Below are positions 15,200 to 36,121 of a DNA stretch of 36,121 nucleotides, piece by piece (position 1 is the first letter of the stretch; the number at the start of each line of letters is the position of its first letter). Under the pieces are notes generated by a model. That model did not search any database and was not told where the DNA came from. It saw only the letters and a program-made list of their open reading frames with translations. The DNA lies in the IMG/VR virus record IMGVR_UViG_2778261180_000005; one strand, given 5' to 3'. Position numbers and translations under genes: made by a program. Origin of the DNA: a virus (Duplodnaviria; Heunggongvirae; Uroviricota; Caudoviricetes).

Positions 15200-15228
15200 T
15201 TGCCGGAAATAGAAATTCAGAAGCGGGT

Positions 15229-15585: not shown

Positions 15586-15612
15586 CAAAAAAGCCACCCC
15601 GAAGGATGGCTA
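15586..15612 (-). terminator. intrinsic terminator after the major tail gene
   Basis: AGCCATCC ttcg GGGTGGCT hairpin followed by UUUUUU on the minus strand. Confidence 0.7.
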
Positions 15613-15619
15613 GATAATA

Positions 15620-16093: not shown

Positions 16094-16147
16094 TATTCTT
16101 TTCCTTCTATTTTAAACAATAGGGCACATACCCGTAATTCTATTTAT

Positions 16148-16755: not shown

Positions 16756-16757
16756 AA

Positions 16758-17054: not shown

Positions 17055-17091
17055 ATAAGAATCCTTAGCGGGGATTTCTCCCCGCTTCCAA

Positions 17092-20613: not shown

Positions 20614-20688
20614 CTAATCACCTCACATAAAACAGGAATAAGGGAGGCGTTAACCTCCCCGCGTCATGTTTTATTTAGGAAGTGAATA

Positions 20689-21522: not shown

Positions 21523-21531
21523 TATTACCCC

Positions 21532-21954
21532 TTAAAAACGCGCTAGATAAGAAAATTTAAGGCTAAGTGTCCCAACGATACCACCATCACTAGAATCATC
21601 GTCATAATCGGTATTAGAGGCTACTGGAGTGATATCTGAAATTGAGAAGCCCAAATCTTTAAAACGTGGGTTATCCGGCTGAATCTGGATTATCTGGCAA
21701 ATACCCTCATGAATTTTTGTTTCATGAATCTGAGAATATAATTGCATTTCGATAACACATTCAGCTTGCATTGCATTACCGCCACGAACACGCGTGTAAG
21801 TCTCATTCATTCCGGTGATCCAACAAACCACGTCATCACTAAAGCCTTGCTGAGTTTGTTCTACGTTTAAAGCCAGACCTAAATCTTGTTCGATAATATC
21901 TTGCAAGGCGCGTTTGATTTTCAGTCTAGGCATGTTATTAACGGTAGCGAGCAT
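21532..21954 (-). CDS. head-tail joining/neck-region protein (140 aa), hypothetical
   Basis: Start moved to ATG at 21954 (GGGGG SD); overlaps the upstream gene by 17 nt. Confidence 0.5.
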   Translation of the reverse strand: MLATVNNMPRLKIKRALQDIIEQDLGLALNVEQTQQGFSDDVVCWITGMNETYTRVRGGNAMQAECVIEMQLYSQIHETKIHEGICQIIQIQPDNPRFKDLGFSISDITPVASNTDYDDDSSDGGIVGTLSLKFSYLARF

Positions 21955-22228
21955 GTGTACCCCCTGCCAGAGTAATAAAGCAATCAGAAGTATTATCACC
22001 ATTGCGCTTAACGTATTGAACTTTGAAACGCTGATTTTCTACAATGACAATATCACCCTGCTTTAAGTCTCCCTCACGACAAAATAGAAATTCTGTTTCT
22101 GTCATTACCCCTTGTTCGTCGGTAGTAGTAATTTCATGATAAGCACGAATTGATTTACCACCTTCCACCGAAAATACAGGAGCACTTCGGAACATTCTTG
22201 ATAATTGTGATTCTGATAATTTGAACAT
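21938..22228 (-). CDS. head completion/connector-region protein (96 aa), hypothetical
   Basis: AAGGGGG SD; first gene after the capsid gene. Confidence 0.55.
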   Translation of the reverse strand: MFKLSESQLSRMFRSAPVFSVEGGKSIRAYHEITTTDEQGVMTETEFLFCREGDLKQGDIVIVENQRFKVQYVKRNGDNTSDCFITLAGGTHARYR

Positions 22229-22257
22229 AGTTACCCCCTTTATGGAGTATTTACATA

Positions 22258-22285
22258 CAAAAAAGCCCCACCGTTAGGCAGGGCT
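22258..22285 (-). terminator. partial terminator in the 200-nt structured region downstream of the capsid gene
   Basis: AGCCC...GGGCT stem followed by a U-run on the minus strand; further hairpins at 22308..22322 and 22384..22402. Confidence 0.45.
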
Positions 22286-22425
22286 AATTATTATTTTGCT
22301 TTCGGTGGACGTCCCACCTTTTTAGCTGTGGCTTTCGCCGTAACCGTCTGGGATTCTTCTTCCTGAGATGGAATCAGATTTTCTTCCCCCAAATCGGGGG
22401 AAGGTACAGAAGGTTCTACGCTAGT

Positions 22426-24405
22426 TCATTCGGAGATGTGAAGAACTTTCAGAGCTTCCGGCTGGGTTACAACATAGTCCAGATCTACCCAGATACGCGG
22501 AACGATAGCGGACTGTGCACGGTAGGTGGTGTCGTCCATATCCAGTTCCAGACCGCCCCACTCACCGATAGTAATACCGGAGAAGTCACCCAGAACGATG
22601 TGATCTGCCGGGATAACACCAGAAGTAACTACATCGTAACCAGCCAGTTTGCCGTTTTCGATGATATAACCGGAAACACCGTTATCTTTCAGGGTAGATT
22701 CCAGTTCAGCAGCAGTTGCACCGCTCATCGCAAACTTGATCGCCTGAGCAGGAACGCCAGCGTCGGTCAGTGCTGCAATTTCTTTCAGGAAGTCTTTGTA
22801 GCTGAAAGCGGCTTTCTTAGTAACACGGCTTGCATCAACCAGTTGTTTAACCAGACCAGCAGGACCGCGCTCATTGTCTTTGTCAGACAGAATCAGTTGT
22901 TCCAGTTTGATGCGAACAGCCTGGTTGATGTGATCAGTGATCAGGGTAGCGATACCCGGAACGGTTTTAATGCTCTGACGGCTGATCGGGTTGCCACCAG
23001 CAAAAGTCTTAGGAGACAGTTTCACGTTTGCAAATTCAGCTTTGCCTTCCGGTGCAGCACCGTTTTCATCAACGAAGCCGAAAGCGTCAACGCTGGATTT
23101 AGTCATTTTTGGAATAGCGGTCGGAGCAGTCAAGCCACTGTAAACAGTCACACCCAGACGACCCAGAACGGATTCCGGCATCAGCATTTCGATGTAGGAT
23201 TCAGTCAGCAGTTTTTCGTCGGTGATAGCAGTCAGGTCAGCTTTGGTGTTACCAGCAGCAGCAGCACGCATAGCAGCAGCAGGAACGAATACAGAGCCAC
23301 CACGAGCAGCACGACCACGCTGCATAGTTGCAGTAGCAGCCATTGCGGAATATTCAGCTTCATGAGCGCCGAGCACGTCGCCATCTACCAGGGAGCGGAT
23401 TACGTTATTAAGATCGAAAGTTTTTTCCATTTTAGAGTCCTTAATTTGTTGTTCGTTGTTACGTTGAGCAGTAGCGATTTTATTTAGTGCCTTAGTGCGG
23501 AATGCTTCCGGCGTCATGTCTTTAATTGCTAATGCGCGTTTCAATTCTTCGTCATCAATATTTAGTTCGCGTGCAATTTCGCGAATTTCTAATTCGTCTT
23601 CTTCGGAACGTTCAGCCACTTCTTCGATTTTTTCTTCTTCAATCGGAGCGGCTTCACGTTCTTCTTTTACTTCTTCTGCTTCCCGAACAGTTGAACTATC
23701 ATCATCAACACTTTCAGGATGTTCAGCGTCTTTTCCGTCTTCGAGATTTTCATCTTCTTTATTCTCTTCAACTTTCGGTTCTTTATTTTCTTCTACCGGA
23801 GTTTCTTCAACCTGAGCGGGTTCTTGTTCTTCTTTGATTTCTTCGATTTGTTCTTTAGTCATATCGCGTTTAGCCTCCAAATTAACTGTGATAGTATTTA
23901 GAGAGCGATTTAAACCGACCGTATCGTCAGCAGGAACTGTCACAAATGAAATTTCAAAGGGTGCCCACTTAGTAACAATCAATTGTCCTTTAGCGTAATC
24001 GATGTGATACTCTTTAATGTCATAGCCGACCGATATTTTTTCCATCGTACCTTCAATGACTTTATTACGAATATCATTAGCCAAAGTCCCATGCTTAGAG
24101 AATTTAACCAGAGCACGGCCTACGTTATCCGCATCGATTCGAGCGTTACAGACAACACCAATGTGATTATCGAAATTATGATTGAACAGCAACGGAGCGT
24201 TATTATTCAGGCGAGACAGATCAACCGCTTCCGGTGTATGTACCAGAATTTCATCTAATACCACCATTTCTTGATTTTGCTCATCCCAGAATTGGCGCTG
24301 GTAAGGCTGGGTACTGGAGAAAGCAATTTCAAATTCGTATTGATCGTTATGCCCTTCGTTAATAACTCCACCGTAACCGTTAAGATCGCGGCGAAATTTA
24401 AGCAT
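22426..24405 (-). CDS. prohead protease - scaffold - major capsid protein fusion (659 aa)
   Basis: N-terminal HK97-type prohead protease motifs (LLFNHNFDNHIGVV, KISVGYD, EISFVTVPAD); acidic linker; C-terminal HK97-fold capsid-like region; host-like codon usage; AAGGTGA SD. Confidence 0.8.
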   Translation of the reverse strand: MLKFRRDLNGYGGVINEGHNDQYEFEIAFSSTQPYQRQFWDEQNQEMVVLDEILVHTPEAVDLSRLNNNAPLLFNHNFDNHIGVVCNARIDADNVGRALVKFSKHGTLANDIRNKVIEGTMEKISVGYDIKEYHIDYAKGQLIVTKWAPFEISFVTVPADDTVGLNRSLNTITVNLEAKRDMTKEQIEEIKEEQEPAQVEETPVEENKEPKVEENKEDENLEDGKDAEHPESVDDDSSTVREAEEVKEEREAAPIEEEKIEEVAERSEEDELEIREIARELNIDDEELKRALAIKDMTPEAFRTKALNKIATAQRNNEQQIKDSKMEKTFDLNNVIRSLVDGDVLGAHEAEYSAMAATATMQRGRAARGGSVFVPAAAMRAAAAGNTKADLTAITDEKLLTESYIEMLMPESVLGRLGVTVYSGLTAPTAIPKMTKSSVDAFGFVDENGAAPEGKAEFANVKLSPKTFAGGNPISRQSIKTVPGIATLITDHINQAVRIKLEQLILSDKDNERGPAGLVKQLVDASRVTKKAAFSYKDFLKEIAALTDAGVPAQAIKFAMSGATAAELESTLKDNGVSGYIIENGKLAGYDVVTSGVIPADHIVLGDFSGITIGEWGGLELDMDDTTYRAQSAIVPRIWVDLDYVVTQPEALKVLHISE

Positions 24406-24450
24406 TTAATCACCTTTAATTAATTGGGGGCATTGCGCCCCCGTTGGTTA

Positions 24451-25962
24451 TTAGGGATCGGCTGGGGAATTTTTTTCTTCACCCTCGCCATTAACGATAA
24501 TATTTAGTGCGCTCTTTTCGGCTTGAATCTCTGAGAATACTTTTTCAGGATCATCACCACGTTCCAATATAACGGCAGTACGTGATTTAAGTCCGTTATC
24601 AATTAAAGCAATCTCGGCGCTTACGTCTTTAAATGGATCGACGGATTCAAAACGCGGACGGATAATAGTTGTATTATCGATAATATGCGGAATTGCAGTA
24701 ATACGAATCGGAACAATACCACGCGCGGAATAATGGCGTAGATATGCTTCGAAAATTGGCAATACCACTGTTTCAATTAATTTGTTTTGCAGTGCTTTAA
24801 CTCGTGTGCGCTGGGTTAATTCACCAAAACGTGCGGCTGAGTAGTTGATCTGGGAAGTGTCACCAGTCAAGCCCTGTTTAAACACGCCTAAGCCCATTGA
24901 TACGCTAGTAAACATCGCATCATTGAAGCTGTTAAAATCATCGCCTGATTGAGTAGATTGGATTGATTTAATCGTTGCCCCTTCCGGTAATTCCTGAATA
25001 GTACCTGGCGCGAAATCGTGAATAACTTCTGGCGCTTGATATTGTTCATCATCTTCACCAGTATCAAAATCGTCACCAGAATCTTTCGGACGCTCGATGA
25101 ACGCCATGTTACAAGCTGAAATTCGTTTCATGACCAGTACAGCTTCGCGGAATGCGTCTTGATGTGCGATATCCTTAATCACTGGCAGGAAGTCAGTCAC
25201 ACCACGTAAACTTTCCGCGCACAGTGGCTGGTAGTAGTGGCACACCTGAGAAGCATCTACGCGATAATTTTCGCCAGTGTAGGTCTGAGTCAGTAGATTG
25301 ATTTTTCTAAACCAGTATGCTACAGGGCGCATTGTGTCTACGTCATACTCAATCCCCTGATAGATCGCACGTTCTTTGCTTATTTCACGACTAAGCGACC
25401 AGTCGCACCTATCAGCAGACAGAATAGAAACTTGTAACTCATTGTTCTCTTTGGTTAAAACGATGAAGCATTCTCCACCCTGAACACGTTCAGATTCTGC
25501 CATTGCCAGCATTTCACGGAAGTTAAAGCGACCGTTGCGAGAGAAGCGTTTAGCACTCTGCGCCCACTTCCAGAAAGCATTCTCGATCTGCTTATTCAGT
25601 GCGGTGTCAAGTTTGCCATTTGATTTAACGATTGATGGTTTCGGATCAAGCCCCGTACCAACAACTTGGTCAACGATATACTGCTTGTATCGCTTACCTA
25701 CAGCATTGTTTATAGCCAGAGTACGACCCTGATCATAAAGGCGCTTACCGTTCGATTTGAGAGCCTTATTGAAGGTTCCTGTAATGGTGTCTTGTTGAAG
25801 CTGTCCATCAATGCGATCACCGACTAAGCCCAAAGAACGCTTAGACAAATCTTTCTGGAATTTTTCTACTTGTTTGTCGATAAAGATTTTTTGTTGTTGC
25901 TGGCGGTGATTAGTTTTAACTGGAGTTTCTACCGCCTTTTTGCGTCGAAAAAGATTAAACAT
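24451..25962 (-). CDS. portal protein (503 aa)
   Basis: Size and position between terminase and capsid; AAGGGG SD. Confidence 0.65.
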   Translation of the reverse strand: MFNLFRRKKAVETPVKTNHRQQQQKIFIDKQVEKFQKDLSKRSLGLVGDRIDGQLQQDTITGTFNKALKSNGKRLYDQGRTLAINNAVGKRYKQYIVDQVVGTGLDPKPSIVKSNGKLDTALNKQIENAFWKWAQSAKRFSRNGRFNFREMLAMAESERVQGGECFIVLTKENNELQVSILSADRCDWSLSREISKERAIYQGIEYDVDTMRPVAYWFRKINLLTQTYTGENYRVDASQVCHYYQPLCAESLRGVTDFLPVIKDIAHQDAFREAVLVMKRISACNMAFIERPKDSGDDFDTGEDDEQYQAPEVIHDFAPGTIQELPEGATIKSIQSTQSGDDFNSFNDAMFTSVSMGLGVFKQGLTGDTSQINYSAARFGELTQRTRVKALQNKLIETVVLPIFEAYLRHYSARGIVPIRITAIPHIIDNTTIIRPRFESVDPFKDVSAEIALIDNGLKSRTAVILERGDDPEKVFSEIQAEKSALNIIVNGEGEEKNSPADP

Positions 25963-25972
25963 GATTTACCCC

Positions 25973-26467
25973 TTATCGCGTAAGACGTACTTTAATATTT
26001 TTAATCGGGCTAATTCCCTGTTTACGTCGTTCGGCTTGAATTAATTTAGACAGTTGACGTTCATAATCAGTCTTTAATTGCTGGAGAACACCTAATGACT
26101 CATAGGCGAAAGTATTCCCTTTCACGGTCATTTGAGATAATGCGGCTTCGTCCCCAGATAAACGGGCGAAAATAACTTGCTCGATTAAGGCGATAGTTTC
26201 CCGCAGATATTCTTTTTTGGATTGTTTGGCGAATACTGGCAAAACAGTTAATTCCTGCATTGATACCAGTTCATCATCCAAAGTTATTACGATGGTATAT
26301 TTACCTTCGGCAAAATCTAAGGTTTTAATCTCATGATTAGCCGGAGTATCATCAACCTGATAAATGATACCTTTACTATTTCCTACCTGAATTGTTACAC
26401 CCTCTTCATTCGCCAGCGTGATTTTTTCGCCTTTACGAATTACTAAGGGAATTAGTTCTAAACTCAT
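25973..26467 (-). CDS. hypothetical head-associated protein (164 aa)
   Basis: Lies between the large terminase and portal genes; AAGGGG SD. Confidence 0.55.
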   Translation of the reverse strand: MSLELIPLVIRKGEKITLANEEGVTIQVGNSKGIIYQVDDTPANHEIKTLDFAEGKYTIVITLDDELVSMQELTVLPVFAKQSKKEYLRETIALIEQVIFARLSGDEAALSQMTVKGNTFAYESLGVLQQLKTDYERQLSKLIQAERRKQGISPIKNIKVRLTR

Positions 26468-26539
26468 AATTACCCCTTATTTAATTGTTATTGGATTAAC
26501 AATATTTAGGAGTAAGCCGCCCCGAAGGACGGCGAGTTA

Positions 26540-28444
26540 TTAGAACGATGTTACCCAACTACGGCCTCTATTTGGACGTCTGGCGATGTTTTTACGTTGT
26601 GGTCGTGTGATTGGCTTAGTTTCTTCGATTTTCTCGTCAGATTGCGATTTAGGAGCTTTTACGGGTTCTTCGACAACACGGTTTAAGCTGTCTTTCATTG
26701 CAATGAGTTTATCCCATGACATTTTTGAAAGGACGTAGCGAGAAGCCGCTGTAGCATACACGGCGCAGTCGAGCGCCTCGTTCCTAACGCCTGGGTTCTT
26801 TACCCATCTCACGCCAGTAGTAGTACGCTTGACAGATTCACTTAAAAGCTGATCGAGATAATCATCAGGAACGGTGTCTGATATTTCTAAGCCAATATGA
26901 GGATTATCTTTCAGGTTCCTAGCCAACATTTCACGAAATGCAGTTTTACCCACATTAACACCCAACATAAGCAATTCATGACCACCTGTGCGGGTAGGTT
27001 TAACCGGAATGATCGGAGCGTTACCAGCAGAACTACCTTTGATAGCGTGTAAGTTCTTCCACTTGCCGCAAATACGGTATCCAGCTTGAGTGAATCGACC
27101 GTTCGATGTATCAAGGAAGCTGGCGAGCATAGGAACACGATCACCCGATACAGTAGTAAATTTGGTTTTATGGAAGTTGATTAATCTATCCCATACAGGG
27201 GATTCATATCGTTCACAGTTATGATCGTAAAAGCTGCGATGATCCAGAATATAAATCTTATCCTTTGCCACGCCCATGATTGTAGTTTCTGCGCGATCTA
27301 ATTGCTGGTCGGTACCCGCACACAAGAAAATCACGTCATCAGGGATATTCTCGATAGAAACATCTGTTTTTAGTTGTTCCAGTTCATTTGCTTCTACTGC
27401 CGTGTCCTGATCGTCGTATACCTTGCCTAACACGGTGTTATAAAATGATTGTAAATCAAAGGATTGCCACGCATGGCTAAAATCAACCACACAAGCGCGG
27501 ATCGTGCTGAAAGGTGAATACAGACGGCTGATCCAGAATCCTGCTACCTCACTTTCACGGGTTGCTCTCCACTCGCCTTGTGCTACTGCCCTGATTCGTT
27601 CCCCTTCGGTCCATGCGTTCTTACAGTGGGGGCAAATATAACGAGCGGTATCAGGATCGGGTAAGTTCTTACCATCGATGTTACGCCATTCAAATTGAAC
27701 GTTTTCCCACTCGATCACCTGGTGTTCCCCGCAATGAGGACACGGAACAAAAAACATACGCATATCACTTGATAACCATTGCTGGTTAATGCTTCCGAGC
27801 TTACTGGTCGGGGTACTGGATACGACTAATCGGCCTTCATCGCCAAAGGTAGTTAAACGGTTAGCAGCCAGTGCCACCGGATCACCTTCTTCTGAGGCTG
27901 TAGCAGCATCGATTTCGTCAAGCAATCCAACCTTTGCGGTCTTACCGCGTAGGGTTGATGGACTAGTAAGCGATACCATATAAAGGAAGTGGTTTGATTT
28001 GAGCTGGAGCTGATTGTTGTTATTAACAGAATTGCGATCATTCTTGTCTGTAACCACGTCTTTTAATGCATCACATGCTTCGATAGACGGTCGGATCTTA
28101 CCCGCGAGATATTGAGACATTTCTTTAGCGGTTGATTGTCCGATAATCATATTGCATGGATCGTTAGCCATCTGGTTAAACAGGATACCGTTTAGGATGG
28201 TAGTTTTTCCGATCTGCGCACTGGTCATCAGTACATACTTTTTCTTATTCTCAAGGAAAGGAGCATCAATCATGCCTTTCTGGAATGACAGCAATTTAAC
28301 TTTATCCCCCGCTTGAGGACCATCTACCAGCACCATATTCGCTTCGCACCATTCAGAAGGAAGGAGTTTAGGCGGTGGCGTAATATATTTGGCTGCATTT
28401 TTGAGAATCTTTTTTAATTTGGCCTTATTAGAAATCAGTTTCAT
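26540..28444 (-). CDS. terminase large subunit, lambda gpA family (634 aa)
   Basis: Walker A (SAQIGKTT); gpA-like motifs [30 protein letters not shown]; GAGGGT SD. Confidence 0.9.
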
Positions 28445-28487
28445 GTAATTACCCTCATTACGAAATATGAAGGTATTTATTAAATTG

Positions 28488-28515
28488 TTGATATTTTGAT
28501 AAATACGGGTATTAA
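28488..28515 (+). promoter_or_regulatory. candidate sigma70 promoter for the rightward accessory genes
   Basis: TTGATA, 16-nt spacer, TATTAA. Confidence 0.35.
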
Positions 28516-28529
28516 TTAAAGGGGGGTGT

Positions 28530-29132
28530 ATGCTAATTAATCAGCAACAAAGAGATGAATTAGAATTAGCCTTGTCTTGTACCGATCATGAATATCGTTT
28601 ACCAGTTAAGCATAAGCATTTAAAAACCGACTACACAACATCTGGCTTTAGTCGTGAGGAAGCGAAAGAGATTTTAATAGAGTTTTACCGCGATAATGGT
28701 TATACAGACGTTCACAACTTCTTTAAGAAGCATAGAACATCACATACAGAGTTTCGGAGAGTCCGAGATTGGTTTGATTTTGATATCAAGCGTTATTATC
28801 GAGTGGATGACGGTCCTATCTATCGGTTGCAGTGGACACCGATCAGGGAAGTGTTGAAACAGAAGAGATTGAATCACGCAATTACACGCTATCGTAACGA
28901 GGCTTTCAAGAAAGGCTATGGTGATACAAGGGAACTATTCGTTGAACTCGCTAACGTGCGTTATAGCCACTATTACAACGATCCTAAAGGGTTCTTTGAA
29001 GTGCTTCGCAAGGTTGATATAAGTCGGGGTACATACTATTCACGGTTGAAGAAGTACGGGATTAAGGCAGAGTTCTTTATGAGTATTGACGATGGAGAAC
29101 TTTTTCCGATAAAATGTAAGTCCTCTAAATAA
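28530..29132 (+). CDS. hypothetical protein with C-terminal HTH (200 aa)
   Basis: AAAGGGGGG SD; C-terminal [17 protein letters not shown] is homologous to the HTH of the 77-aa and 60-aa proteins. Confidence 0.6.
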
Positions 29133-29160
29133 AGGTGAACATTCACTTTAATTTGGAGAA

Positions 29161-29394
29161 ATGACTATGACTACTAAAGCTACTCGCGGTCGTCCTTGCC
29201 GTTTTAACGCTGAACAGATGGCTGATATTGCCTACGCTTACTATACAGCGGATCGTGGTAAGGAAGCGAAAGAACAGATTCTTAGTGAACATGGGATCTC
29301 AATCGCCCAATTCTATAAGAATATGAAGAAGTTAGACATTAAATTCTATGTTCAGATCGGTGATGGTCAGATCGTAGAAGCAACAGGTTTTTGA
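29161..29394 (+). CDS. small HTH protein (77 aa), terminase-small-subunit N-domain-like
   Basis: RGRPCRFNAEQ...GISIAQFYKNMKKLDIK; the ATG at 29167 has better SD spacing than 29161. Confidence 0.6.
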   Translation: MTMTTKATRGRPCRFNAEQMADIAYAYYTADRGKEAKEQILSEHGISIAQFYKNMKKLDIKFYVQIGDGQIVEATGF

Positions 29395-29409
29395 GTTTTG
29401 ATTCTCTTT

Positions 29410-29433
29410 GCCACTCTTCGGAGTGGCTTTTTT
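29410..29433 (+). terminator. intrinsic terminator
   Basis: GCCACTC ttcg GAGTGGC followed by TTTTTT. Confidence 0.85.
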
Positions 29434-29566
29434 GTATGTAAAACAATCTCGCCAGTTTTGGTGAGATCTATAGATGCCCTCAAAACTGAGGGGATGTGCT
29501 TAAAGTTCAGCATATCTATCTAAGTGGTTGATTCTTTCTAGAAATCCAAATCTGGATGCATCAGAT

Positions 29567-29598
29567 ACAAAAAAGCCCAGCGCAATTATGCGCCGGGC
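29567..29598 (-). terminator. intrinsic terminator after the Rha-like gene
   Basis: GCCCAGCGCA atta TGCGCCGGGC stem followed by a U-run on the minus strand. Confidence 0.8.
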
Positions 29599-29604
29599 GA
29601 TTAA

Positions 29605-30435
29605 TCAGATCCCAAAATCAACAAGGGAAATTACGTTACCTGATTCACGAATCTGTTTAGCAGCTTTGTTTTGAATCAGAATAGTGTTGTTCGGCTTAGG
29701 AAGATTCAGAGTTGCTTTTTGTTCTTCTTCCAGAATACCCAATTCAACCAACACAGGAAGAACATCAACCGTAAACTCAAGTTGGTAGTGAGCATTCATG
29801 CGGCAGAAAGACAGAGAAGAGTCATTAGCAACATACCCACACGGCTTGTTATTTTCATCGTAGACGCGCTCAATGTAGCCAGCAGTACGCAAGGCCGTTA
29901 GTGCTTCTTTAACCTTCGTAGCGCCCTTTTTAGCGCCTAACAGACGGGTCATTGAATGGCTATCTACTGATTTGCGAACATGAAGTTCAATCAGCTTTTT
30001 ATTTTCGCGAGTTTTCTTTAATGCCAGTTCGATCCAGTCTGTTTCTTCAAAGTCTGCATATGGATTAACGGCTAAACGTTCCTGACGCAGTTTTTCATTT
30101 TCTTCTTTCAGTCGCTTCCATTCCTGAATAACAACCATTCGACGCTTAACATCGTAACCAGTGACAAGAGTCAGCGTCATTTCTTCGTCTAAGTGATATA
30201 CTGGTTCTTTAACAGCATATCCTAAGTTATTGATTCTCTCGACAAATTCAGTTTTGAGCTGATCGATAATACCTAAAGATTCGTACATTTCGCGAATATC
30301 GCGCATTACATTGCTGTGCTTCTTATCGGTAAATTCAGCGATCTGACGAGAAGACATGGTCAGCGGTTTGGTGTTATCAACAACCAGAGACATTGAAGCA
30401 GTTTTAACAGTATTCATAGTAGTAACAGTATTCAT
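29605..30435 (-). CDS. Rha-family phage regulatory protein (antirepressor-like), 276 aa
   Basis: N-terminal LTMSSRQIAEFTDKKHSNVMRDIRE; start uncertain because of a tandem ATGAATACTGTTA duplication at the 5' end. Confidence 0.7.
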   Translation of the reverse strand: MNTVTTMNTVKTASMSLVVDNTKPLTMSSRQIAEFTDKKHSNVMRDIREMYESLGIIDQLKTEFVERINNLGYAVKEPVYHLDEEMTLTLVTGYDVKRRMVVIQEWKRLKEENEKLRQERLAVNPYADFEETDWIELALKKTRENKKLIELHVRKSVDSHSMTRLLGAKKGATKVKEALTALRTAGYIERVYDENNKPCGYVANDSSLSFCRMNAHYQLEFTVDVLPVLVELGILEEEQKATLNLPKPNNTILIQNKAAKQIRESGNVISLVDFGI

Positions 30436-30538
30436 AGTAAAAATTCCCCTTAAACGGTTTAGTGATTGATTCTCCTGTTTTTAACTGTCCACACGCCAAC
30501 GGCGCGCGGAACAATTTTATTTATAAGAAGTTTTTATC

Positions 30539-30685
30539 TCATTTAGATTCAGCAATCGCGCGATCAATTTCTTCTTGAATGCGACGCTGGCGTTCATGGA
30601 AGTCAACCATTGAGAAATTCAGGTTTGGGGTCCACGGTTTGCGGTTCGGGTTTTTACGTCCATCAATTTTCTTAGTAGTGTTCAT
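30539..30685 (-). CDS. small basic protein (48 aa), candidate
   Basis: Not in the ORF track (under 60 aa); AAGAGGA SD 7 nt upstream; consensus promoter directly upstream. Confidence 0.5.
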   Translation of the reverse strand: MNTTKKIDGRKNPNRKPWTPNLNFSMVDFHERQRRIQEEIDRAIAESK

Positions 30686-30743
30686 AATTAACATCCTCTT
30701 TACAAATCTAGGTCAAATAGGTTCAAAGTTGTCAAGTGCGATA

Positions 30744-30772
30744 ATCATAAAAAAGTCATAAAATTTTGTCAA
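30744..30772 (-). promoter_or_regulatory. sigma70 promoter (minus strand)
   Basis: TTGACA, 17-nt spacer, TATGAT when read on the minus strand. Confidence 0.6.
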
Positions 30773-30807
30773 TACCCCTTGACAAGACGCCAAAGGGTTG
30801 ACCTAAC

Positions 30808-31260
30808 TTACAGCATATCTAAGCCTTCATCGTAACCGTAGAAGCCATTCTGAGAAGAGAAGCAGATTGGTGCGTAGTCGTCGTCATCTTCGTCTTGTTC
30901 ATCGTGTTCTGGGGCTTCCTGAGCGGGTTGTTTACCATAATCAGCCATAATCTGGTCAAGATCGGCGATCCCATAGTAAGAGCCTAAATCAACGTCATAT
31001 TCACGAACATCAAACGGCAGGTCATCACGAACAATAATTGCCGGAATGTTGTTGTATTGTTCACGACCTTCATCAGTAAAGCAGTCTACGATCACCGTAG
31101 GGCGACCATTACGTTTAAGAGCATAGAAAGCAGTTGAGAAATTGGAGTCTTCGGAATGACGAATGATGTTATAACCACGATTAGCGAAAACATGCATCAT
31201 AGCCAGATTATCATCATGGTTCAGACCCAGAAGAATGAAAGGAGTTTTAGTATTGATCAT
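30808..31260 (-). CDS. hypothetical protein with acidic C-terminal tail (150 aa)
   Basis: AGAGGA SD; a 6-bp inverted repeat operator-like site sits upstream. Confidence 0.6.
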   Translation of the reverse strand: MINTKTPFILLGLNHDDNLAMMHVFANRGYNIIRHSEDSNFSTAFYALKRNGRPTVIVDCFTDEGREQYNNIPAIIVRDDLPFDVREYDVDLGSYYGIADLDQIMADYGKQPAQEAPEHDEQDEDDDDYAPICFSSQNGFYGYDEGLDML

Positions 31261-31281
31261 AGTGGAAATCCTCTAAAAGAA

Positions 31282-31303
31282 AGTGAATCAAAGTAAGTTC
31301 ACT
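31282..31303. promoter_or_regulatory. palindromic operator-like site
   Basis: AGTGAA-N10-TTCACT between the putative promoter and RBS of the 150-aa gene. Confidence 0.4.
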
Positions 31304-31464
31304 ATTATTTATAACGAGAAATTTTTGTCTAATTTGAAAGGAATTGGTATTCAGTCGGCTTCGCCTCCTTCATAGATTTTGATTAAATCATCATCAAAAC
31401 GAAGAAGTATCTTTAGAATATAAGAATCTTTCTTTTGGAGAAATAATAATCCGGAAGCAATTTA

Positions 31465-31493
31465 GCAACCGAAGGTTGCAATCCCGAAGGGAT
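31465..31493. other. two adjacent short hairpins with GAAG loops
   Basis: GCAACC gaag GTTGC and ATCCC gaa GGGAT. Confidence 0.4.
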
Positions 31494-31522
31494 ACCAATA
31501 CCTTTCATGATCATTAAAGTGA

Positions 31523-31750
31523 TCTAGAATCATCTAGTAACCAGTTAACTACTATTATCTTCAAAGTGATTATTACTATCTTTCTAGAATCAGTTAGTAA
31601 CTAGTTTAAAATCCCTTTCAAGAAAATCCTTTCAGAAGTGATTCTCGATGCCACGCAGTGGCGTCGCAGACGTTTGAGAGTGAGCGAAGCGAGCGAGCAA
31701 ACTAGTTAATTCCTTCTAAGACCATCTAGTATCATCTAGTTTAAATTAGT
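31523..31750. repeat. CTAG-rich direct repeats (about 27 bp, 3 copies)
   Basis: TCTAGAATCATCTAGTAACCAGTTAAC at 31523, TCTAGAATCAGTTAGTAACTAGTTTAA at 31583, related copy at 31723; TCTAGAA also occurs at 29537. Confidence 0.6.
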
Positions 31751-31943
31751 GTTACTAGAAGTAATTGGTTAGCGCTTCGCGCAGTCGGGCTACGCCCTCC
31801 TAATATCTTTTTGGTTATTTGTTGTTTTTGGTTTTACACATGAGCGTAGCGAATGTGTTATATAATATCTATGCACGCCCGATCCCCCGCTTTTGCCCCT
31901 CACTAAGTTAATGTTTTATAAAGAGTTTTTCTCACCAATCCTT

Positions 31944-32131
31944 TTCGGGGGCAAATTTCAGGGGCAAAAATTAGATTTTCAGGGGCAATTATTGGCATTT
32001 CAGGGGCAAAAATGAGGGGCAAAATCACTGTTTCCCAGAATTTCAGGGGCAAAAATAGTGGGTTTCAGGGGCAAAAATGGGATAGTGAAATCTAGGGGAT
32101 TTTGGTTCAGGGGCAAAATTCAGGGGCAAAT
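31944..32131. repeat. iteron array, about 10 copies of TTCAGGGGCAAAA
   Basis: Copies begin at about 31944, 31957, 31978, 31999, 32013, 32041, 32063, 32092 (variant), 32106 and 32119; spacing is mostly 13-22 bp. Confidence 0.85.
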
Positions 32132-32135
32132 TTCA

Positions 32136-32185
32136 TAGTGTAGGGCTAGTGTAGGTTTGAAAATCCTTTGTTGACACTGTGTAGG
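32136..32185. promoter_or_regulatory. TAGTGTAGG direct repeats (2 copies plus a TGTGTAGG inside the promoter spacer)
   Basis: Copies at 32136..32144 and 32147..32155; related copy at 32178..32185. Confidence 0.5.
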
Positions 32186-32199
32186 ATCGGTGGTATACT
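32171..32199 (+). promoter_or_regulatory. near-consensus sigma70 promoter
   Basis: TTGACA (32171-32176), 17-nt spacer, TATACT (32194-32199). Confidence 0.75.
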
Positions 32200-32591
32200 T
32201 GAAAATTCGAGATAAATATGTTATAATATTTGTATTGAAAGTGAAAATTTACCGATTTTCCTTCCTATTGTTATCACTGTGTTAAATTGTTATATGTCTG
32301 TGAAGATTTGGATCTGAGAGAAAATCTTGTAACAAATCTTTACAATTCATAGCTCAATTAATGCTCACCGCTTTAGCAAAAAGTGCTATGCCTTTTTCTA
32401 AATTGATTGAATAAACATCAATTTGGTTAATTCGTGTTCTTCTCTTTAGCAATTCGTGCTGCGGTTTAACACATTTAACACGCCTGATAACATCCAAATA
32501 ACATTTTAACATATCTCTGTTCTAAATACATATATAAGAGATAAATGTGAGGGGTTGAAAAATTAAAAACAATCCCCATATAAATAATAGT

Positions 32592-32612
32592 GAGCGGTTA
32601 ACGCTCTTTTTT
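32592..32612 (+). terminator. intrinsic terminator/attenuator ending a ~400-nt untranslated transcript
   Basis: GAGCG gttaa CGCTC followed by TTTTTT. Confidence 0.55.
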
Positions 32613-32647
32613 AAGAAATCATTAATCCAGATTTAGGAGGATTCAAG

Positions 32648-32830
32648 ATGGCACGACCTGTTAAGTTCACTCGTGAAATCGTTTTAGAAATGGCAAAGCG
32701 TTATTTTGAACTGACGCCTGATGTAGTGATTGGTGAATGGTTTAAAGGTGAAGGTATTGATCAATCAACCTTCCACAAACTCTTAAAGAAGTATGACATT
32801 AAAGTAAAGATAACCGCAGAGGTTTACTGA
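32648..32830 (+). CDS. small HTH protein (60 aa), paralog of the 77-aa protein
   Basis: Strong SD TAGGAGGA at 7 nt; MARPVKFTRE...GIDQSTFHKLLKKYDIK. Confidence 0.7.
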   Translation: MARPVKFTREIVLEMAKRYFELTPDVVIGEWFKGEGIDQSTFHKLLKKYDIKVKITAEVY

Positions 32831-32871
32831 TACTTTGACTGAGAATTATATGATGGCTTTAAAAATAAAAA

Positions 32872-32900
32872 AGCCCCCTTGCGGCAACAAGGAGGCTTTT
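32872..32900. terminator. intrinsic terminator (leaky/bidirectional)
   Basis: AGCCCCCTTG cggcaa CAAGGAGGCT followed by TTTT; an A-run lies upstream. Confidence 0.65.
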
Positions 32901-32942
32901 GCGATGAACAATTAAAACTAACTTTCCACAGGAGTATTTATA

Positions 32943-33884
32943 ATGTTATTTTCCGCTAACTTTTTCACTAACGAAGTAACCAACGCTAAAGCAGTTATCA
33001 AATTTGGCACCGAAGCAAACAAGAAGATTCAGCCGAAAGTTGTTGCTCATGTTTCCTTTGCGCAGCAGAAATCCGCTTTCGCTGGCTTTAAAGCACATCG
33101 TGAAGCACTGATCGCGGCTGGCTTTGGTGTTGACGGTAAACTGCCTAACGGCATTCGTAAAGCAATCGACCGCGTTAAACCTGCTAAAGACGTTGCAGTA
33201 GACCACATCGTTACTTTTACCGTTAAGAACTCTTCTGAACTGTTCCACCTGGTTATTGCTGGTGATACTGCTATCGTTTCCGCTCCTAACATGGATTTTC
33301 AGGATACCGCTGATTGCCAGATCACCTTCGGTCGTCGTAAAGAAGTTACCGGAAAAGCTAAACTGAACTTCACTAAATCCGGCAATCCTTACTTTGCTGT
33401 TTTCTTTAACAGCCACGCTACCGAAAAAGAAGTTGTAGAACTGGTTGCTTATGAAGGTGAAGAGAAAGAACGTATTGAATCTTGCGAAGCATTTCTGGAA
33501 CTGGAAGCACAGGTGAATGCTGTTTCTCCGGTTGTTGAAGATCGCTTTGCTGCACTGGAAGCACAGATCGCAGAACTGAAAGCTGCACTGGAAGAAAAAG
33601 ACCAGATTATCGAAGCACAGAAAGCTGAGATTGAAGAACTGAAAGCTAAAGAAGTTGCTCCGGTAGCAGTAGTTGAAAACGCGGCTGATGAGGCCGCAAA
33701 TGATGAAGTAGAAGTGAAAATCGATGTGATGCGTGATCCGATGGCTGCACTGCAATTACTTCGTTCTTTTAAGGGCAAATCTCATTTTTCTAGTGATGTA
33801 GAAGATGAGGAAGAAGAACAGAAACGCAATGCTGCAATGCTTCATGATGAAATGTACGGTACTAACTTTTCTTACTGCCAATAA
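32943..33884 (+). CDS. hypothetical coiled-coil protein with strongly host-optimised codon usage (313 aa)
   Basis: SD AGGAG; codons dominated by CTG, CGT, GGT, GAA, AAA and CCG, unlike the rest of the element; central coiled coil and acidic C-terminus. Confidence 0.8.
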   Translation: MLFSANFFTNEVTNAKAVIKFGTEANKKIQPKVVAHVSFAQQKSAFAGFKAHREALIAAGFGVDGKLPNGIRKAIDRVKPAKDVAVDHIVTFTVKNSSELFHLVIAGDTAIVSAPNMDFQDTADCQITFGRRKEVTGKAKLNFTKSGNPYFAVFFNSHATEKEVVELVAYEGEEKERIESCEAFLELEAQVNAVSPVVEDRFAALEAQIAELKAALEEKDQIIEAQKAEIEELKAKEVAPVAVVENAADEAANDEVEVKIDVMRDPMAALQLLRSFKGKSHFSSDVEDEEEEQKRNAAMLHDEMYGTNFSYCQ

Positions 33885-33906
33885 AAAAGGGACTCCGAAG
33901 AGTCCC
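33883..33906. terminator. intrinsic terminator (mainly for minus-strand transcripts; hairpin abuts the stop of the 313-aa gene)
   Basis: A6 then GGGACTC cgaa GAGTCCC. Confidence 0.7.
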
Positions 33907-33983
33907 TAGTAAGTTTAGGTTAGGTTTTGCACAACAAAGATGAGGTTATAATGAACATAATGCTACATTATTCTTTAAAGCCA

Positions 33984-34010
33984 GAAAAATAACCGCCCCC
34001 TTCGGGGCGG
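33984..34010 (-). terminator. intrinsic terminator (minus strand)
   Basis: CCGCCCC cttc GGGGCGG preceded on the plus strand by AAAAATAA, which is a U-run on the minus strand. Confidence 0.7.
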
Positions 34011-34168
34011 GAGGATTAATACTCAATCTATACTTGTTATGTTTTTATGTTGTATAGTCACTGACTATGAAAACACTGTACTGAATGTGTTTTATGGCTT
34101 TTAATCGGGAACTCTCTTTCGAAAATTCCCTGTTAAAACCACATAAGGAGAAAAGGCAGATTACAATA

Positions 34169-34453
34169 TTATTTAGTCTGTTTGAAAACAAACGTTAAAA
34201 ATTCGATTAAGCAATATACCCAAAGTACGGTCAGCATCAAATGCATAGCAATAGTTGGATGGAAGTTAAAAAGTGTCATACTAACTAGGCCAACAATATA
34301 AGAAATCCCTTCGACAATTAACGCAAGGCTAGCAAATGCAACAAACGCACCTAAGAATAATTCGCCTCGTTCTTTCGGTTCGGTTCCGAGTTTATAAGCA
34401 GAGATAGCAGCCAGAATAGTAATGATGACAGCATAGGTAATAAAAGTAGCCAT
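34169..34453 (-). CDS. small integral membrane protein (94 aa, about 3 TM segments)
   Basis: AAGAGGA SD; hydrophobic segments ITYAVIITILAAISAY, LGAFVAFASLALIVEGISYIVGLV and LMLTVLWVYCLIEFLTFVF. Confidence 0.65.
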   Translation of the reverse strand: MATFITYAVIITILAAISAYKLGTEPKERGELFLGAFVAFASLALIVEGISYIVGLVSMTLFNFHPTIAMHLMLTVLWVYCLIEFLTFVFKQTK

Positions 34454-34547
34454 AGTTTTATATCCTCTTAAAAGTTAAGCGGGGGATGTTCTCCCCCGTA
34501 GACGTTGACCCGTTCAACATCTTTCTCACTATTATTTATAACGCGTT

Positions 34548-35105
34548 TTAAGACACATCAAATTCATCGTCTTCTTCTGGTTCTTGTTCTTCCGGTTCAT
34601 CCATTAATGGTAATTCTTCTTCCTCGTCTTCTCCCAAATCTGCATTTTCGAACAAGTCCCCTACTTCATTTAAACGACGCTCGATAATCTCCCTTAGCTT
34701 ATTCTTTAATGTTTTCTGGTCAGTGGCAGATTCGAGAATTTCTAAAGCGTCGATTGTGGCGATCTGCAAAATAGTCTGCTTCACTTTCCCGCAGTATTCC
34801 GCTAGCTCCTGCTCCACATAACCGACGGGAATCAGGAGATTCATTTTTTCCTGGTTCTCTCGTTCGATGGCGTCCGCTAATGCTCTTTCTCTGCGGAGAC
34901 GTTCTTGATCAATCGCTTCTTTGATTGAAGTTTGTTTAAGTGGGTTAATTACGTTCTTTAGCACCCAATCGCAACCTTCCTTTGCTGGTACACGACGCGT
35001 GTGGGTGTTCATCGGTAGTCCCCTTTCTAACCATCGCTTACCGCCACCATTCAATGTATAGCCATATAAACGGGAAATTTCTGTAAGGGTTAATTCTTCT
35101 TTCAT
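34548..35105 (-). CDS. Nu1-like winged-HTH protein; candidate terminase small subunit (or other DNA-binding factor), 185 aa
   Basis: GGAGGA SD; N-terminal LTLTEISRLYGYT...WLERGLP resembles the Nu1/MerR-type wHTH; coiled coil; acidic C-terminal tail. Confidence 0.5.
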   Translation of the reverse strand: MKEELTLTEISRLYGYTLNGGGKRWLERGLPMNTHTRRVPAKEGCDWVLKNVINPLKQTSIKEAIDQERLRRERALADAIERENQEKMNLLIPVGYVEQELAEYCGKVKQTILQIATIDALEILESATDQKTLKNKLREIIERRLNEVGDLFENADLGEDEEEELPLMDEPEEQEPEEDDEFDVS

Positions 35106-35401
35106 TGGTTATCCTCCATTAAATTTGCGTAATTTTATTTATTGGTTTTACGCAAAATCTAAGCGCCTAAATCGCATTCTAACGAAGGGAAAGATCCAGT
35201 AATGGTAAGGGTTAGGAAGTGGGTTAATAGTCGCGTAGCGACCGCGCCATGAGTGAAGTGATCACGTTTTAGATCCTGACGCGCACATCAAATAACGGGG
35301 TGCCGAAAACTCGCTTTATTTCACCCGTGGAACAGTACCTTTTGATTTTGTCAAGTCTTTTTTATAAATAATCGAAAATATTTTTCACGCGAGGGCAAAT
35401 C

Positions 35402-35707
35402 ATGAAGACTAAAGATATTAAGATTGAATTTGAAACTGTTGATGACGTTCGGGAACATCGTATTGATTCTACTGGCTGCATCTTCCAGCTTACTAACTCC
35501 CCTATTGGATTGATTATCTATGTAGCAGAAGATGACGTGTACGCTATGTGGGATGGACAGGATGAATTTAAAGGCGGGAATAGCCATCTGATCAATACTC
35601 ATGAGGGATTCGATCCGACTCCTGTCTGTATGCTTGCTTATCACGTAACACTGGATGAACTACCGGAAGCAAGCGCGCGTATCCGTAAAATGAAAGATAT
35701 TAAGTGA
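35402..35707 (+). CDS. hypothetical protein (101 aa)
   Basis: GAGGG SD 7 nt upstream; followed by a terminator. Confidence 0.6.
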   Translation: MKTKDIKIEFETVDDVREHRIDSTGCIFQLTNSPIGLIIYVAEDDVYAMWDGQDEFKGGNSHLINTHEGFDPTPVCMLAYHVTLDELPEASARIRKMKDIK

Positions 35708-35726
35708 TGTAAGTGATTGATTCTAT

Positions 35727-35755
35727 AGCCCTGTCCTTGTGATGGGGCTTTTTTA
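35727..35755 (+). terminator. intrinsic terminator
   Basis: AGCCC...GGGCT stem followed by TTTTTTATT. Confidence 0.6.
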
Positions 35756-35770
35756 TTGCAAAAATTTTAG

Positions 35771-36121
35771 TTATTGGGGTTTACAACATTTAGGTTTGCC
35801 AATTCGCCTGGCTAACTCTTGCTGAGTGATTTCTGACTGTAAAAAAGCATTTAACAGCAATACTTTAGAGGCGACGCTCAAAGGTACTTCAATAAAGTGA
35901 TCATGACTATTTAATGGCGAAGGTAACGGGATAAGCTCGTTATCTTCAAAATAAAAATCAAATGCGGTCAGTAAAGCATCTTTTGCCGCTTCCATCGCTT
36001 CAGCGACAGTTTCGCCCTGCGTCAACGCTTCAGGGATATCCACAAAAGAAACCATATAACCGCCTTCCGGCGCGGGTGTAAGAGTGACGGGATAACGCAT
36101 AATTTCGACTGTCTCTCGCAT
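35771..36121 (-). CDS. hicB: HicB-like antitoxin, apparently truncated at its 3' end
   Basis: MRYPVTLTPAPEGGYMVSFVDIPEALTQGETVAEA... N-domain with enterobacterial-like codon usage; HTH begins (SEITQQELARRIGKPK) but the ORF ends CCKPQ* five codons later, at the composition switch. Confidence 0.7.
   Translation of the reverse strand: MRETVEIMRYPVTLTPAPEGGYMVSFVDIPEALTQGETVAEAMEAAKDALLTAFDFYFEDNELIPLPSPLNSHDHFIEVPLSVASKVLLLNAFLQSEITQQELARRIGKPKCCKPQ

What the first reader, a model, noticed from the sequence alone, without database searches (positions are those of the whole stretch)
35700..36121. Element boundary inside a hicB-like antitoxin gene, removing its DNA-binding helix
The minus-strand ORF at the window end has higher GC and host-like codons and encodes a HicB-type antitoxin N-domain. 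It then starts what reads as an XRE-type HTH (LLLNAFLQSEITQQELARRIGKPK) but terminates after the unrelated residues CCKPQ. That point (about 35789) is exactly where the sequence becomes AT-rich element DNA, with a plus-strand terminator (35727..35755) abutting. This looks like integration into the 3' end of hicB, leaving an antitoxin that could still bind its toxin but probably cannot autoregulate. The element encodes a large serine recombinase, a class known to integrate inside protein-coding genes.
Basis: partly seen in the sequence, partly recalled or inferred. Interest (0 to 1): 0.65.

Follow-up and report, generated by a model that had tools for sequence, protein, structure and literature searches.

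The report
Prophage split the hicB antitoxin gene
The right end of this window is the junction where a roughly 36-kb E. coli prophage, inserted by its own large serine integrase, cuts the chromosomal hicB antitoxin gene in two. The remaining antitoxin lacks its DNA-reading helix; this is a well-supported but fairly ordinary case of a phage integrating inside a gene.

Summary

**Junction.** Homology to chromosomal E. coli hicB starts exactly at window 35789. The minus-strand ORF 35771..36100/36121 consists of hicB codons 1-104, five phage-encoded codons (CCKPQ) and a stop.

**Missing half.** The last 105 nt of hicB lie at the other prophage end. In related genomes this is about 42 bp left of window position 1, next to ydcR. 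Joining the two halves rebuilds a 417-nt, 138-aa hicB.

**Recombination site.** attL, attR and attB share TTTAGGTTT (35789-35797). A sibling phage inserted in ycdX shows a 2-bp TT crossover. By ungapped alignment of the two attP sites, this places the crossover at 35796-35797.

**Integrase.** It is encoded at 1010..2689 and has Resolvase, Recombinase and Zn-ribbon domains.

**What is lost.** The truncation removes HTH helix 3 and everything after it, including the dimerising strand. The HicA-binding N-domain is kept.

**Prevalence.** 35 of 5426 complete E. coli genomes carry this junction. The exact chimeric protein occurs on about 600 public contigs.

**Function.** The consequences are inferred, not shown: loss of P2 repression with toxin neutralisation kept.

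**Correction.** The GC contrast is small (43.8% against 41.7%).

This is a new member of a known kind, of modest interest.

The parts
35789..36100 (-). Host-derived 5' part of hicB: codons 1-104, 312 nt. It includes the HicA-binding N-domain and HTH helices 1-2.
   Evidence: 98.8% identical to K-12 hicB from 35789 onward. Pfam HicB_lk_antitox. Identical to PDB 6HPB chain B residues 1-104.
36101..36121 (-). hicA-hicB intergenic bases. They contain an upstream in-frame ATG, the old 145-aa HicB start (MRETVEI).
   Evidence: K-12 annotation puts the hicB start at the position equivalent to 36100. The ORF listing starts at 36121.
35789..35797 (.). 9-bp identity TTTAGGTTT shared by attB, attL and attR. 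On the minus strand it encodes K-P-K (HicB 102-104).
   Evidence: Alignment of attR (window, L3Cip3, ETEC1717), attL (L003, L004) and attB (K-12). The sequence is unique in the window.
35796..35797 (.). Inferred crossover dinucleotide TT.
   Evidence: The sibling phage in ycdX shares only TT between attL, attR and attB. The attP sites of the two phage types align without gaps, with 22 nt between GTTATT and CCCTAATAT. This is an inference by homology.
35771..35788 (-). Phage-encoded tail of the chimeric ORF: CCKPQ plus a TAA stop. The same bases are the inner P arm of attP.
   Evidence: Sequence and translation. These bases are absent from hicB in genomes without the element.
35765..35788 (.). 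P arm of attP. It carries the motif GTTATTGGGG (35770-35779), which has an imperfect inverted partner, CCCCCACAATAAC, in the P' arm at attL, outside the window.
   Evidence: Reconstructed attP. The motif is conserved in the sibling phage's attP.
35727..35759 (+). Terminator-like hairpin with a T-run, closing the last phage gene.
35402..35707 (+). Last phage ORF before attR (101 aa, no family match). It occupies a variable cargo position.
   Evidence: No Pfam hit. The gene in this position differs between lysogens.
1010..2689 (+). Large serine recombinase (integrase), 559 aa. The catalytic motif is YIRFSS at the N-terminus.
   Evidence: Pfam Resolvase, Recombinase and Zn_ribbon_recom. PHROG 95 integrase, E 9e-57. 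99% identical to the integrase of the hicB-inserted prophage of L3Cip3.
1..35795 (.). Body of the prophage. The window starts about 42 bp inside the element, so attL is not in the window.
   Evidence: Terminase large subunit, portal, major head, tape measure and tail tip proteins. The left flank was read in ETEC1717 and L3Cip3.

Best explanation
Window 35700-36121 is attR of a tailed temperate prophage of about 35.8 kb. The phage's large serine integrase (gene at 1010..2689) inserted it into the chromosomal hicB gene of E. coli.

**Recombination.** It was conservative. It took place within the 9-bp identity TTTAGGTTT (35789-35797), most likely at the last TT (35796-35797).

**Result for hicB.** Codons 1-104 stay attached to hicA and the hicAB promoters. 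They are fused to five phage codons (CCKPQ) and a stop. The last 34 codons are stranded about 36 kb away at attL, next to ydcR.

**What the truncated protein keeps and loses.** It keeps the N-terminal domain that masks the HicA active site. It loses the recognition helix, helices 4-5 and the C-terminal beta-strand through which E. coli HicB dimerises.

**Inferred consequences.** The protein can no longer bind the hicO operator, so the antitoxin-only promoter P2 is constitutively derepressed. HicA is still neutralised by a monomeric antitoxin that lacks a DNA-binding domain. Excision would restore hicB exactly.

**Confidence.** About 0.95 for the integration and truncation. About 0.55 for the functional consequence.
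For: **Shown here**
- The homology break is exactly at 35789.
- Both hicB halves are annotated as partial genes at the two prophage ends.
- The halves rebuild a 417-nt ORF that is 137/138 identical to K-12 HicB.
- TTTAGGTTT is shared by attB, attL and attR.
- The integrase has the three domains of a large serine recombinase (LSR).
- The element has a full set of virion genes.
- The same junction is in 35 of 5426 complete genomes. attL at hicB is in 31. The exact chimeric protein is on 592 + 23 contigs.
- A sibling phage whose integrase is 87% identical sits inside ycdX with a 2-bp TT crossover.
- The HTH_3 match is lost in the truncated product.
- hicA is intact (same protein accession as K-12) in L3Cip3 and ETEC1717. 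It is annotated as hicA, not as the frameshifted 'mRNA interferase', in 27 of 35 lysogens.

**From the literature (review PMC11594946; PMC10865869)**
- The HicB N-domain neutralises HicA independently of the DNA-binding domain.
- E. coli HicB dimerises through a beta-strand after the HTH.
- P2 is repressed by HicB and yields antitoxin only.
- The Y. pestis HicB3 structure lacking its C-terminal domain still contains the toxin in a complex.
- Natural HicB proteins without a DNA-binding domain are common.
Against: - No experiment or expression data were available. The orphaned HTH helices 1-2 plus the CCKPQ tail could make the protein unstable.
- PGAP calls the fragment a pseudogene.
- No free or circular attP form was found in IMG/VR or JGI metagenome contigs, so current mobility of this phage is not shown.
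- The crossover dinucleotide in this phage is inferred from the sibling, not observed.
- hicA and attL are outside the window, so they were read in related genomes and not in the source genome.
Confidence: 0.85

Rival explanations
1. The truncated hicB is a dead pseudogene. The product is unstable or inactive and HicA is left without an antitoxin. Lysogens survive because hicA is transcribed only from the Sxy/CRP-dependent P1 promoter at low level. The lysogen would then behave like a hicB null mutant, with mild HicA activation.
For: - PGAP annotates the fragment as a pseudogene.
- hicB/ydcQ disruptions are viable in K-12 and act through toxin activation, as cited in PMC11481867.
- A 22-bp-deletion hicA pseudogene allele is present in 8 of 35 lysogens.
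Against: - The same hicA deletion allele is in 811 of 5426 genomes overall. The enrichment in lysogens is not significant (odds ratio 1.7, p = 0.23) and is confounded by lineage.
- The whole HicA-binding domain is retained.
- C-terminally truncated HicB3 still forms the toxin complex, and HicB proteins without a DNA-binding domain are common.
Confidence: 0.3
2. The prophage acts as a reversible genetic switch (active lysogeny). Regulated excision without lysis would restore hicB and normal hicAB autoregulation under particular conditions, as described for comK, sigK and spsM in Firmicutes.
For: - Recombination is conservative, so excision would rebuild hicB exactly.
- Large serine recombinase elements are the class used in the known switches (own knowledge).
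- The site is recurrent in hundreds of assemblies.
Against: - No excised or attP form was seen.
- No recombination directionality factor was identified.
- The element carries a full virion gene set, like an ordinary temperate phage.
- A sibling phage targets the unrelated gene ycdX. This suggests that site choice follows a DNA motif rather than hicB biology.
Confidence: 0.08
3. This is not an insertion. It is a natural short hicB allele, an assembly artefact, or a rearrangement by transposition or homologous recombination.
For: None found.
Against: - The junction is identical in 35 independent complete genomes.
- The missing 3' end is at the other end of the element.
- There is no target duplication or deletion.
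- A serine integrase gene lies next to attL.
Confidence: 0.01

Closest known systems
Listeria phages A118 / phi10403S integrated in comK (large serine integrase)
   Same: A temperate tailed phage with a large serine integrase inserts inside a protein-coding gene and splits it. Exact excision restores the gene.
   Different: The host is E. coli and the target is a toxin-antitoxin antitoxin gene. Only the C-terminal DNA-binding part is removed, so a possibly functional N-terminal product remains. No evidence of regulated, non-lytic excision was obtained here.
Bacillus subtilis SPbeta in spsM and the skin element in sigK (serine recombinases SprA / SpoIVCA)
   Same: Intragenic insertion by a large serine recombinase, with conservative recombination at a short core.
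   Different: Those elements are developmentally excised to rebuild a sporulation gene. Nothing comparable is shown here. The integrase here is only about 30% identical to the nearest integrase of any deposited phage (Bcep176).
Mycobacteriophage Bxb1 in groEL1 and phiC31 (model serine integrases)
   Same: Three-domain integrase architecture, short att sites and a non-palindromic central dinucleotide. Here the dinucleotide is TT, seen directly in the sibling phage.
   Different: attP and attB share 9 bp here rather than only the dinucleotide. The outer attP motifs lie at unequal distances from the inferred crossover. No biochemical data exist.
Natural HicB antitoxins without a DNA-binding domain (classes 1 and 2 of PMC10865869)
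   Same: The truncated product would be a HicB consisting essentially of the partial RNase H-like toxin-binding domain.
   Different: Here that state arises secondarily from an HTH-type (class 3) HicB through phage insertion. It leaves two orphan HTH helices and a 5-residue foreign tail.
E. coli phage 21 / e14 integration in icd
   Same: An E. coli prophage inserted in the 3' part of a chromosomal coding gene.
   Different: Those phages use tyrosine integrases and carry a replacement 3' end that keeps icd functional. This phage supplies only CCKPQ and a stop, so the HTH is not replaced.

Membership tests
Large serine recombinase (serine integrase) | N-terminal resolvase-type catalytic domain with the serine nucleophile motif | tested here: met
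   Pfam PF00239 Resolvase, E 7.7e-15, residues 11-158 of the 564-aa ORF. The motif YSYIRFSSMKQ is at the N-terminus (alignment).
Large serine recombinase (serine integrase) | Recombinase domain and zinc-ribbon domain C-terminal to the catalytic domain | tested here: met
   PF07508 Recombinase (E 1.4e-7) and PF13408 Zn_ribbon_recom (E 6.6e-10). PHROG 95 integrase, E 8.8e-57.
Large serine recombinase (serine integrase) | Conservative recombination between short attP and attB sites at a 2-bp crossover, with no target duplication | tested here: met
   attL plus attR rebuild hicB exactly. The crossover is confined to 9 bp in this phage and to 2 bp (TT) in the sibling whose integrase is 87% identical.
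Large serine recombinase (serine integrase) | Catalytic activity of the protein on these att sites, and dependence of excision on a directionality factor | not testable with these tools
   Needs in vitro or in vivo recombination assays.
HicB antitoxin, HTH type (E. coli HicB) | N-terminal partial RNase H-like HicA-binding domain | tested here: met
   PF15919 HicB_lk_antitox, E 5.6e-8. Residues 1-104 are identical to PDB 6HPB chain B.
HicB antitoxin, HTH type (E. coli HicB) | C-terminal XRE-type HTH DNA-binding and dimerisation domain | tested here: not met
   HTH_3 (residues 88-134 of the intact protein) is not detected in the window's product. The sequence ends after helix 2. The window therefore encodes a truncated derivative, not a complete member.
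HicB antitoxin, HTH type (E. coli HicB) | Encoded directly downstream of hicA in one operon | tested here: met
   The window ends before hicA. In genomes with the same junction, hicA lies 45 bp upstream.
Temperate tailed prophage | Virion and packaging genes plus an integrase, bounded by att sites in a host gene | tested here: met
   Terminase large subunit, portal, major head, tape measure and tail tip proteins. Endolysin-like metallohydrolase. attL and attR identified.
Active-lysogeny / gene-switch prophage | Regulated excision that restores the interrupted gene without phage production | not testable with these tools
   No attP or empty-site evidence could be linked to lysogens. Needs read-level or experimental data.

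The most novel reading that the evidence does not exclude
Integration into hicB is not incidental. By deleting only the operator-binding and dimerisation part of the antitoxin, the phage would rewire a host toxin-antitoxin/defence module in the lysogen. One possibility is constitutive over-production of a toxin-sequestering HicB fragment, which would silence HicA-based abortive infection. Another is an excision-dependent switch that restores normal hicAB control.
Probability: 0.1. Interest if true: 0.6.

Novelty: new member of a known kind. Interest (0 to 1): 0.3.

Why it matters
**hicAB biology.** The finding identifies hicB as a recurrent phage attachment site in E. coli and Shigella: 35 of 5426 complete genomes and hundreds of draft assemblies. 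These strains carry a natural separation-of-function hicB allele, with the toxin-binding domain kept and the operator-binding and dimerisation parts removed. They could be used to test directly how hicAB autoregulation and HicA control work outside the laboratory.

**Integrase specificity.** The finding also yields a pair of closely related serine integrases (87% identical) with different, precisely mapped attB/attP sites in hicB and ycdX. Such pairs are useful for studying or engineering integrase specificity.

**Limits.** The event itself is ordinary prophage biology. Annotation pipelines already flag the split gene as a pseudogene.

Tried and rejected
1. **Free or circular phage form.** Exact attP 24-mer and 27-mer patterns gave 0 hits in IMG/VR and 0 in JGI metagenome contigs. 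The three IMG/VR contigs that carry the P' arm are all integrated at hicB.
2. **Described relatives.** No deposited phage among 50,697 matches beyond a tail-fibre segment. The nearest integrase is 30% identical.
3. **Selection against the toxin in lysogens.** The hicA 22-bp-deletion pseudogene is in 8 of 35 lysogens and in 811 of 5426 genomes overall. The difference is not significant (p = 0.23) and is confounded by phylogeny. The first count was unusable because BLAST joined the two half-matches. It was repeated with a stricter E-value.
4. **Expression of the stranded hicB 3' end from the phage side.** Only a 26-aa TTG ORF lies there, and nothing suggests expression.
5. **GC or codon contrast as a boundary marker.** The difference is too small to use.
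6. **Symmetry analysis of attB and attP by eye.** It gave conflicting centres. The sibling-phage comparison replaced it. My first reconstruction of the ycdX attB was one base short and was corrected from a real sequence.
7. **Literature.** No paper in the searchable library describes hicB or ycdX as a phage attachment site. The primary HicB structure paper is not in the library.
8. **Other features.** Rfam found nothing in 33000-36121, and the repeat scan of 35300-36121 showed only short, chance-level repeats.

Full report
**What is in the sequence**

The minus-strand ORF 35771..36121 encodes 116 aa ending ...QQELARRIGKPKCCKPQ*. Its N-terminal part matches Pfam HicB_lk_antitox. The HTH_3 domain found at residues 88-134 of intact E. 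coli K-12 HicB is not detected.

A megablast of 35600-36121 against 5426 complete E. coli genomes matched 5323 of them. Almost all matches begin at query base 190, which is window 35789. Only 9 genomes also matched the bases to the left. A direct blastn against the K-12 locus gave 35789-36121 at 98.8% identity.

Composition does not mark the boundary. The hicB part is 43.8% GC and the rest of the window 41.7%. The accepted hicB start corresponds to 36100, as in the K-12 annotation and PDB 6HPB. The ATG at 36121, where the window ends, is an upstream in-frame codon. A terminator-like hairpin on the + strand at 35727-35749 closes the last phage ORF, 35402..35707. Rfam found nothing in 33000-36121, and a repeat scan of 35300-36121 showed only short, chance-level repeats.

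**The other half of the gene**

Genomes that share the window's left end include ETEC1717 (99.9% identical over 1-3000) and L3Cip3. In both, PGAP annotates a 'HicB, incomplete, missing N-terminus' fragment next to ydcR. It ends 36 bp before the base corresponding to window position 1. At the other end of the same prophages, PGAP annotates 'hicB, incomplete, missing C-terminus' next to an intact hicA.

Joining the ETEC1717 attL fragment to the window's attR fragment gives a 417-nt ORF. Its 138-aa product differs from K-12 HicB at one residue. Nothing is lost or duplicated.

**How the insertion happened**

The three sites read as follows:
- attB: cctgTTTAGGTTTgcc
- attL: cctgTTTAGGTTTccc (gcc in L3Cip3)
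- attR: aacaTTTAGGTTTgcc

They share nine bases (window 35789-35797), which occur only once in the window. On the minus strand these bases encode K102-P103-K104.

About 1 kb inside attL lies a 559-aa protein (window 1010..2689). It has Resolvase, Recombinase and zinc-ribbon domains and matches the PHROG integrase family at E 9e-57. This is the architecture of a large serine integrase. The element also encodes the large terminase subunit, portal, major head protein, tape measure, a 1258-aa tail tip protein and an endolysin-like metallohydrolase. It is therefore a tailed temperate prophage. Its length is about 35.8 kb if the source genome has the same 42-bp left flank as ETEC1717.

**A sibling phage narrows the crossover**

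Of the 58 genomes that carry this integrase region, 31 have attL at hicB. In the others that were listed or examined, the same phage left end lies inside ycdX, which is split in the same way. The ycdX-type integrase is 87% identical to the one in the window.

Its sites read:
- attB...catatttgggaTTtccggg...
- attL...atttgggaTTccctaatatc...
- attR...acgttcgggTTtccggg...

Only the dinucleotide TT is common to all three, which is the signature of a serine integrase. The reconstructed attP sites of the two phage types align without gaps, with 22 nt between GTTATT and CCCTAATAT. By homology, the crossover in the window is the last TT of the core, 35796-35797. This last step is an inference.

Differences between the two integrases are concentrated in three domains. 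They are 30 of 160 residues in the catalytic domain, 20 of 140 in the recombinase domain and 12 of 72 in the zinc-ribbon domain. Only 9 of 187 residues differ in the C-terminal part.

**How common it is**

A query containing 90 bp of phage flank, hicB' and hicA found 35 complete genomes with the junction. The exact 116-aa chimeric protein is on 592 contigs and the 109-aa version on 23, including Shigella sonnei. In all 8 contexts read, it is followed by element genes and never by ydcR, although the gene immediately next to attR varies. No full-length hicB with this ending was found.

**What the truncation removes**

The cut is after K104. Mapping onto the HTH_3 profile shows what remains and what is lost:
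- Kept: helix 1 (SVASKVLLLNAFLQS) and helix 2 (TQQELARRIG).
- Lost: recognition helix 3 (KPKQEITRLFN), the following helices and the C-terminal KELSLVMV.

Published work, as summarised in PMC11594946 and PMC10865869, states the following:
- E. coli HicB neutralises HicA through helix alpha-1 of its N-terminal partial RNase H fold, independently of the DNA-binding domain.
- It dimerises through a beta-strand that follows the HTH.
- It represses promoter P2 at the hicO operator, and P2 yields antitoxin only.
- The upstream promoter P1 is Sxy/CRP-dependent.
- The Y. pestis HicA3-HicB3 complex was crystallised with HicB3 lacking its C-terminal domain.
- HicB proteins that naturally lack a DNA-binding domain are common.

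From this I infer that the product is a monomeric antitoxin that is blind to DNA. P2 would be derepressed and HicA still sequestered. I put this at about 0.55.

**The main rival and the test I could run**

The main rival, at about 0.3, is that the fragment is unstable. The lysogen would then behave like a hicB null mutant. Such mutants are viable in K-12 and act through toxin activation (cited in PMC11481867; the primary papers are known to me but were not read here).

The genomic test available was whether lysogens have lost hicA. Eight of 35 carry a frameshifted hicA with a 22-bp deletion. The same allele is in 811 of 5426 genomes overall. The odds ratio is 1.7 with p = 0.23, and the genomes are not phylogenetically independent. 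This neither supports nor excludes a cost.

**Activity of the phage**

I found no attP (circular) form in IMG/VR or JGI metagenome contigs. The three IMG/VR contigs that contain the P' arm are integrated at hicB. The following facts argue that the family is or recently was mobile, but this is indirect:
- lysogens are diverse, at 91-99.9% identity;
- element sizes differ between strains;
- the family has two target genes;
- the junctions are exact.

**Comparison with what is known**

Large serine integrase phages and elements that split coding genes are well known. From my own knowledge, examples are A118/phi10403S in comK, SPbeta in spsM, skin in sigK and Bxb1 in groEL1. This case works in the same way and passes the sequence-level membership tests for a serine integrase.

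The differences are these:
- The host is E. coli or Shigella.
- The phage lineage is not deposited. No near relative exists among 50,697 phage records, and the nearest integrase is 30% identical.
- The target is a toxin-antitoxin antitoxin gene, and only its regulatory and dimerisation module is removed.

I found no paper describing hicB or ycdX as a phage attachment site. The split gene is already flagged as a pseudogene by PGAP.

**Verdict**

The claimed GC and codon contrast is weak, and the functional consequence is untested. This is a new member of a known kind. Interest is modest at 0.3. It is a tidy, recurrent natural allele of a well-studied antitoxin and a useful integrase pair, but not a surprise to a specialist.

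Noticed in passing
L005 2990-3055, L011 7770-7830, L012 (related E. coli genomes); integrase = window 1010-2689: A sibling prophage whose integrase is 87% identical is inserted inside ycdX (zinc-binding phosphatase) in other E. coli genomes. Only a 2-bp TT is shared between attB, attL and attR. The pair is a natural specificity switch between two intragenic targets, hicB and ycdX.
   Followed up: partly
hicA, just right of the window (L009 1036-1190, L010 1029-1183): A hicA pseudogene allele has a 22-bp deletion between two CGCA repeats. It is present in 811 of 5426 complete E. coli genomes (about 15%), mostly next to an intact hicB. It is not significantly enriched among the hicB-split lysogens.
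   Followed up: yes
window 16132-19750 (ORF 17092..20613, minus strand, 1173 aa): The prophage's long tail-fibre gene is 80-95% identical at nucleotide level to the long tail fibre distal subunit genes of T4-like lytic phages such as vB_EcoM_G37-3, KFS-EC and IME340. It is the only part of the window that matches any deposited phage. This suggests recent exchange of a receptor-binding module.
   Followed up: no
window 35402-35707 and the equivalent position in L013-L020: The gene immediately inside attR differs between lysogens: a 101-aa ORF here, and 354-aa, 256-aa or 76 + 190-aa ORFs elsewhere. The last 72 bp or more before the crossover are conserved. This looks like a variable cargo slot. 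None of these ORFs has a Pfam hit.
   Followed up: no
window 35776-35788 and the 14 bp just left of window position 1 (L003 5987-5998): GGGGTTTACAACA directly left of the core is repeated in direct orientation as GGGGGTACAACA about 30 bp to the right of the core in attP, just before the ATG of the first phage ORF. In addition, the outer inverted motifs GTTATTGGGG / CCCCCACAATAAC lie at unequal distances from the inferred crossover. The meaning of both features is unknown.
   Followed up: no
window 34548-35105 (minus strand, 185 aa): A conserved acidic-tailed protein near attR gives only a weak small-terminase-like PHROG hit (E 6e-10). It lies 6 kb from the large terminase gene. It is in the same orientation as hicAB, so read-through from a derepressed hicAB promoter could reach it. 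Its role is untested; it could be a small terminase subunit, or possibly an excision factor.
   Followed up: no
window 1 and 36121: The window begins exactly at the ATG of the first prophage ORF and ends exactly at an in-frame ATG upstream of hicB. attL, hicA and the hicAB promoters are therefore all just outside it.
   Followed up: yes
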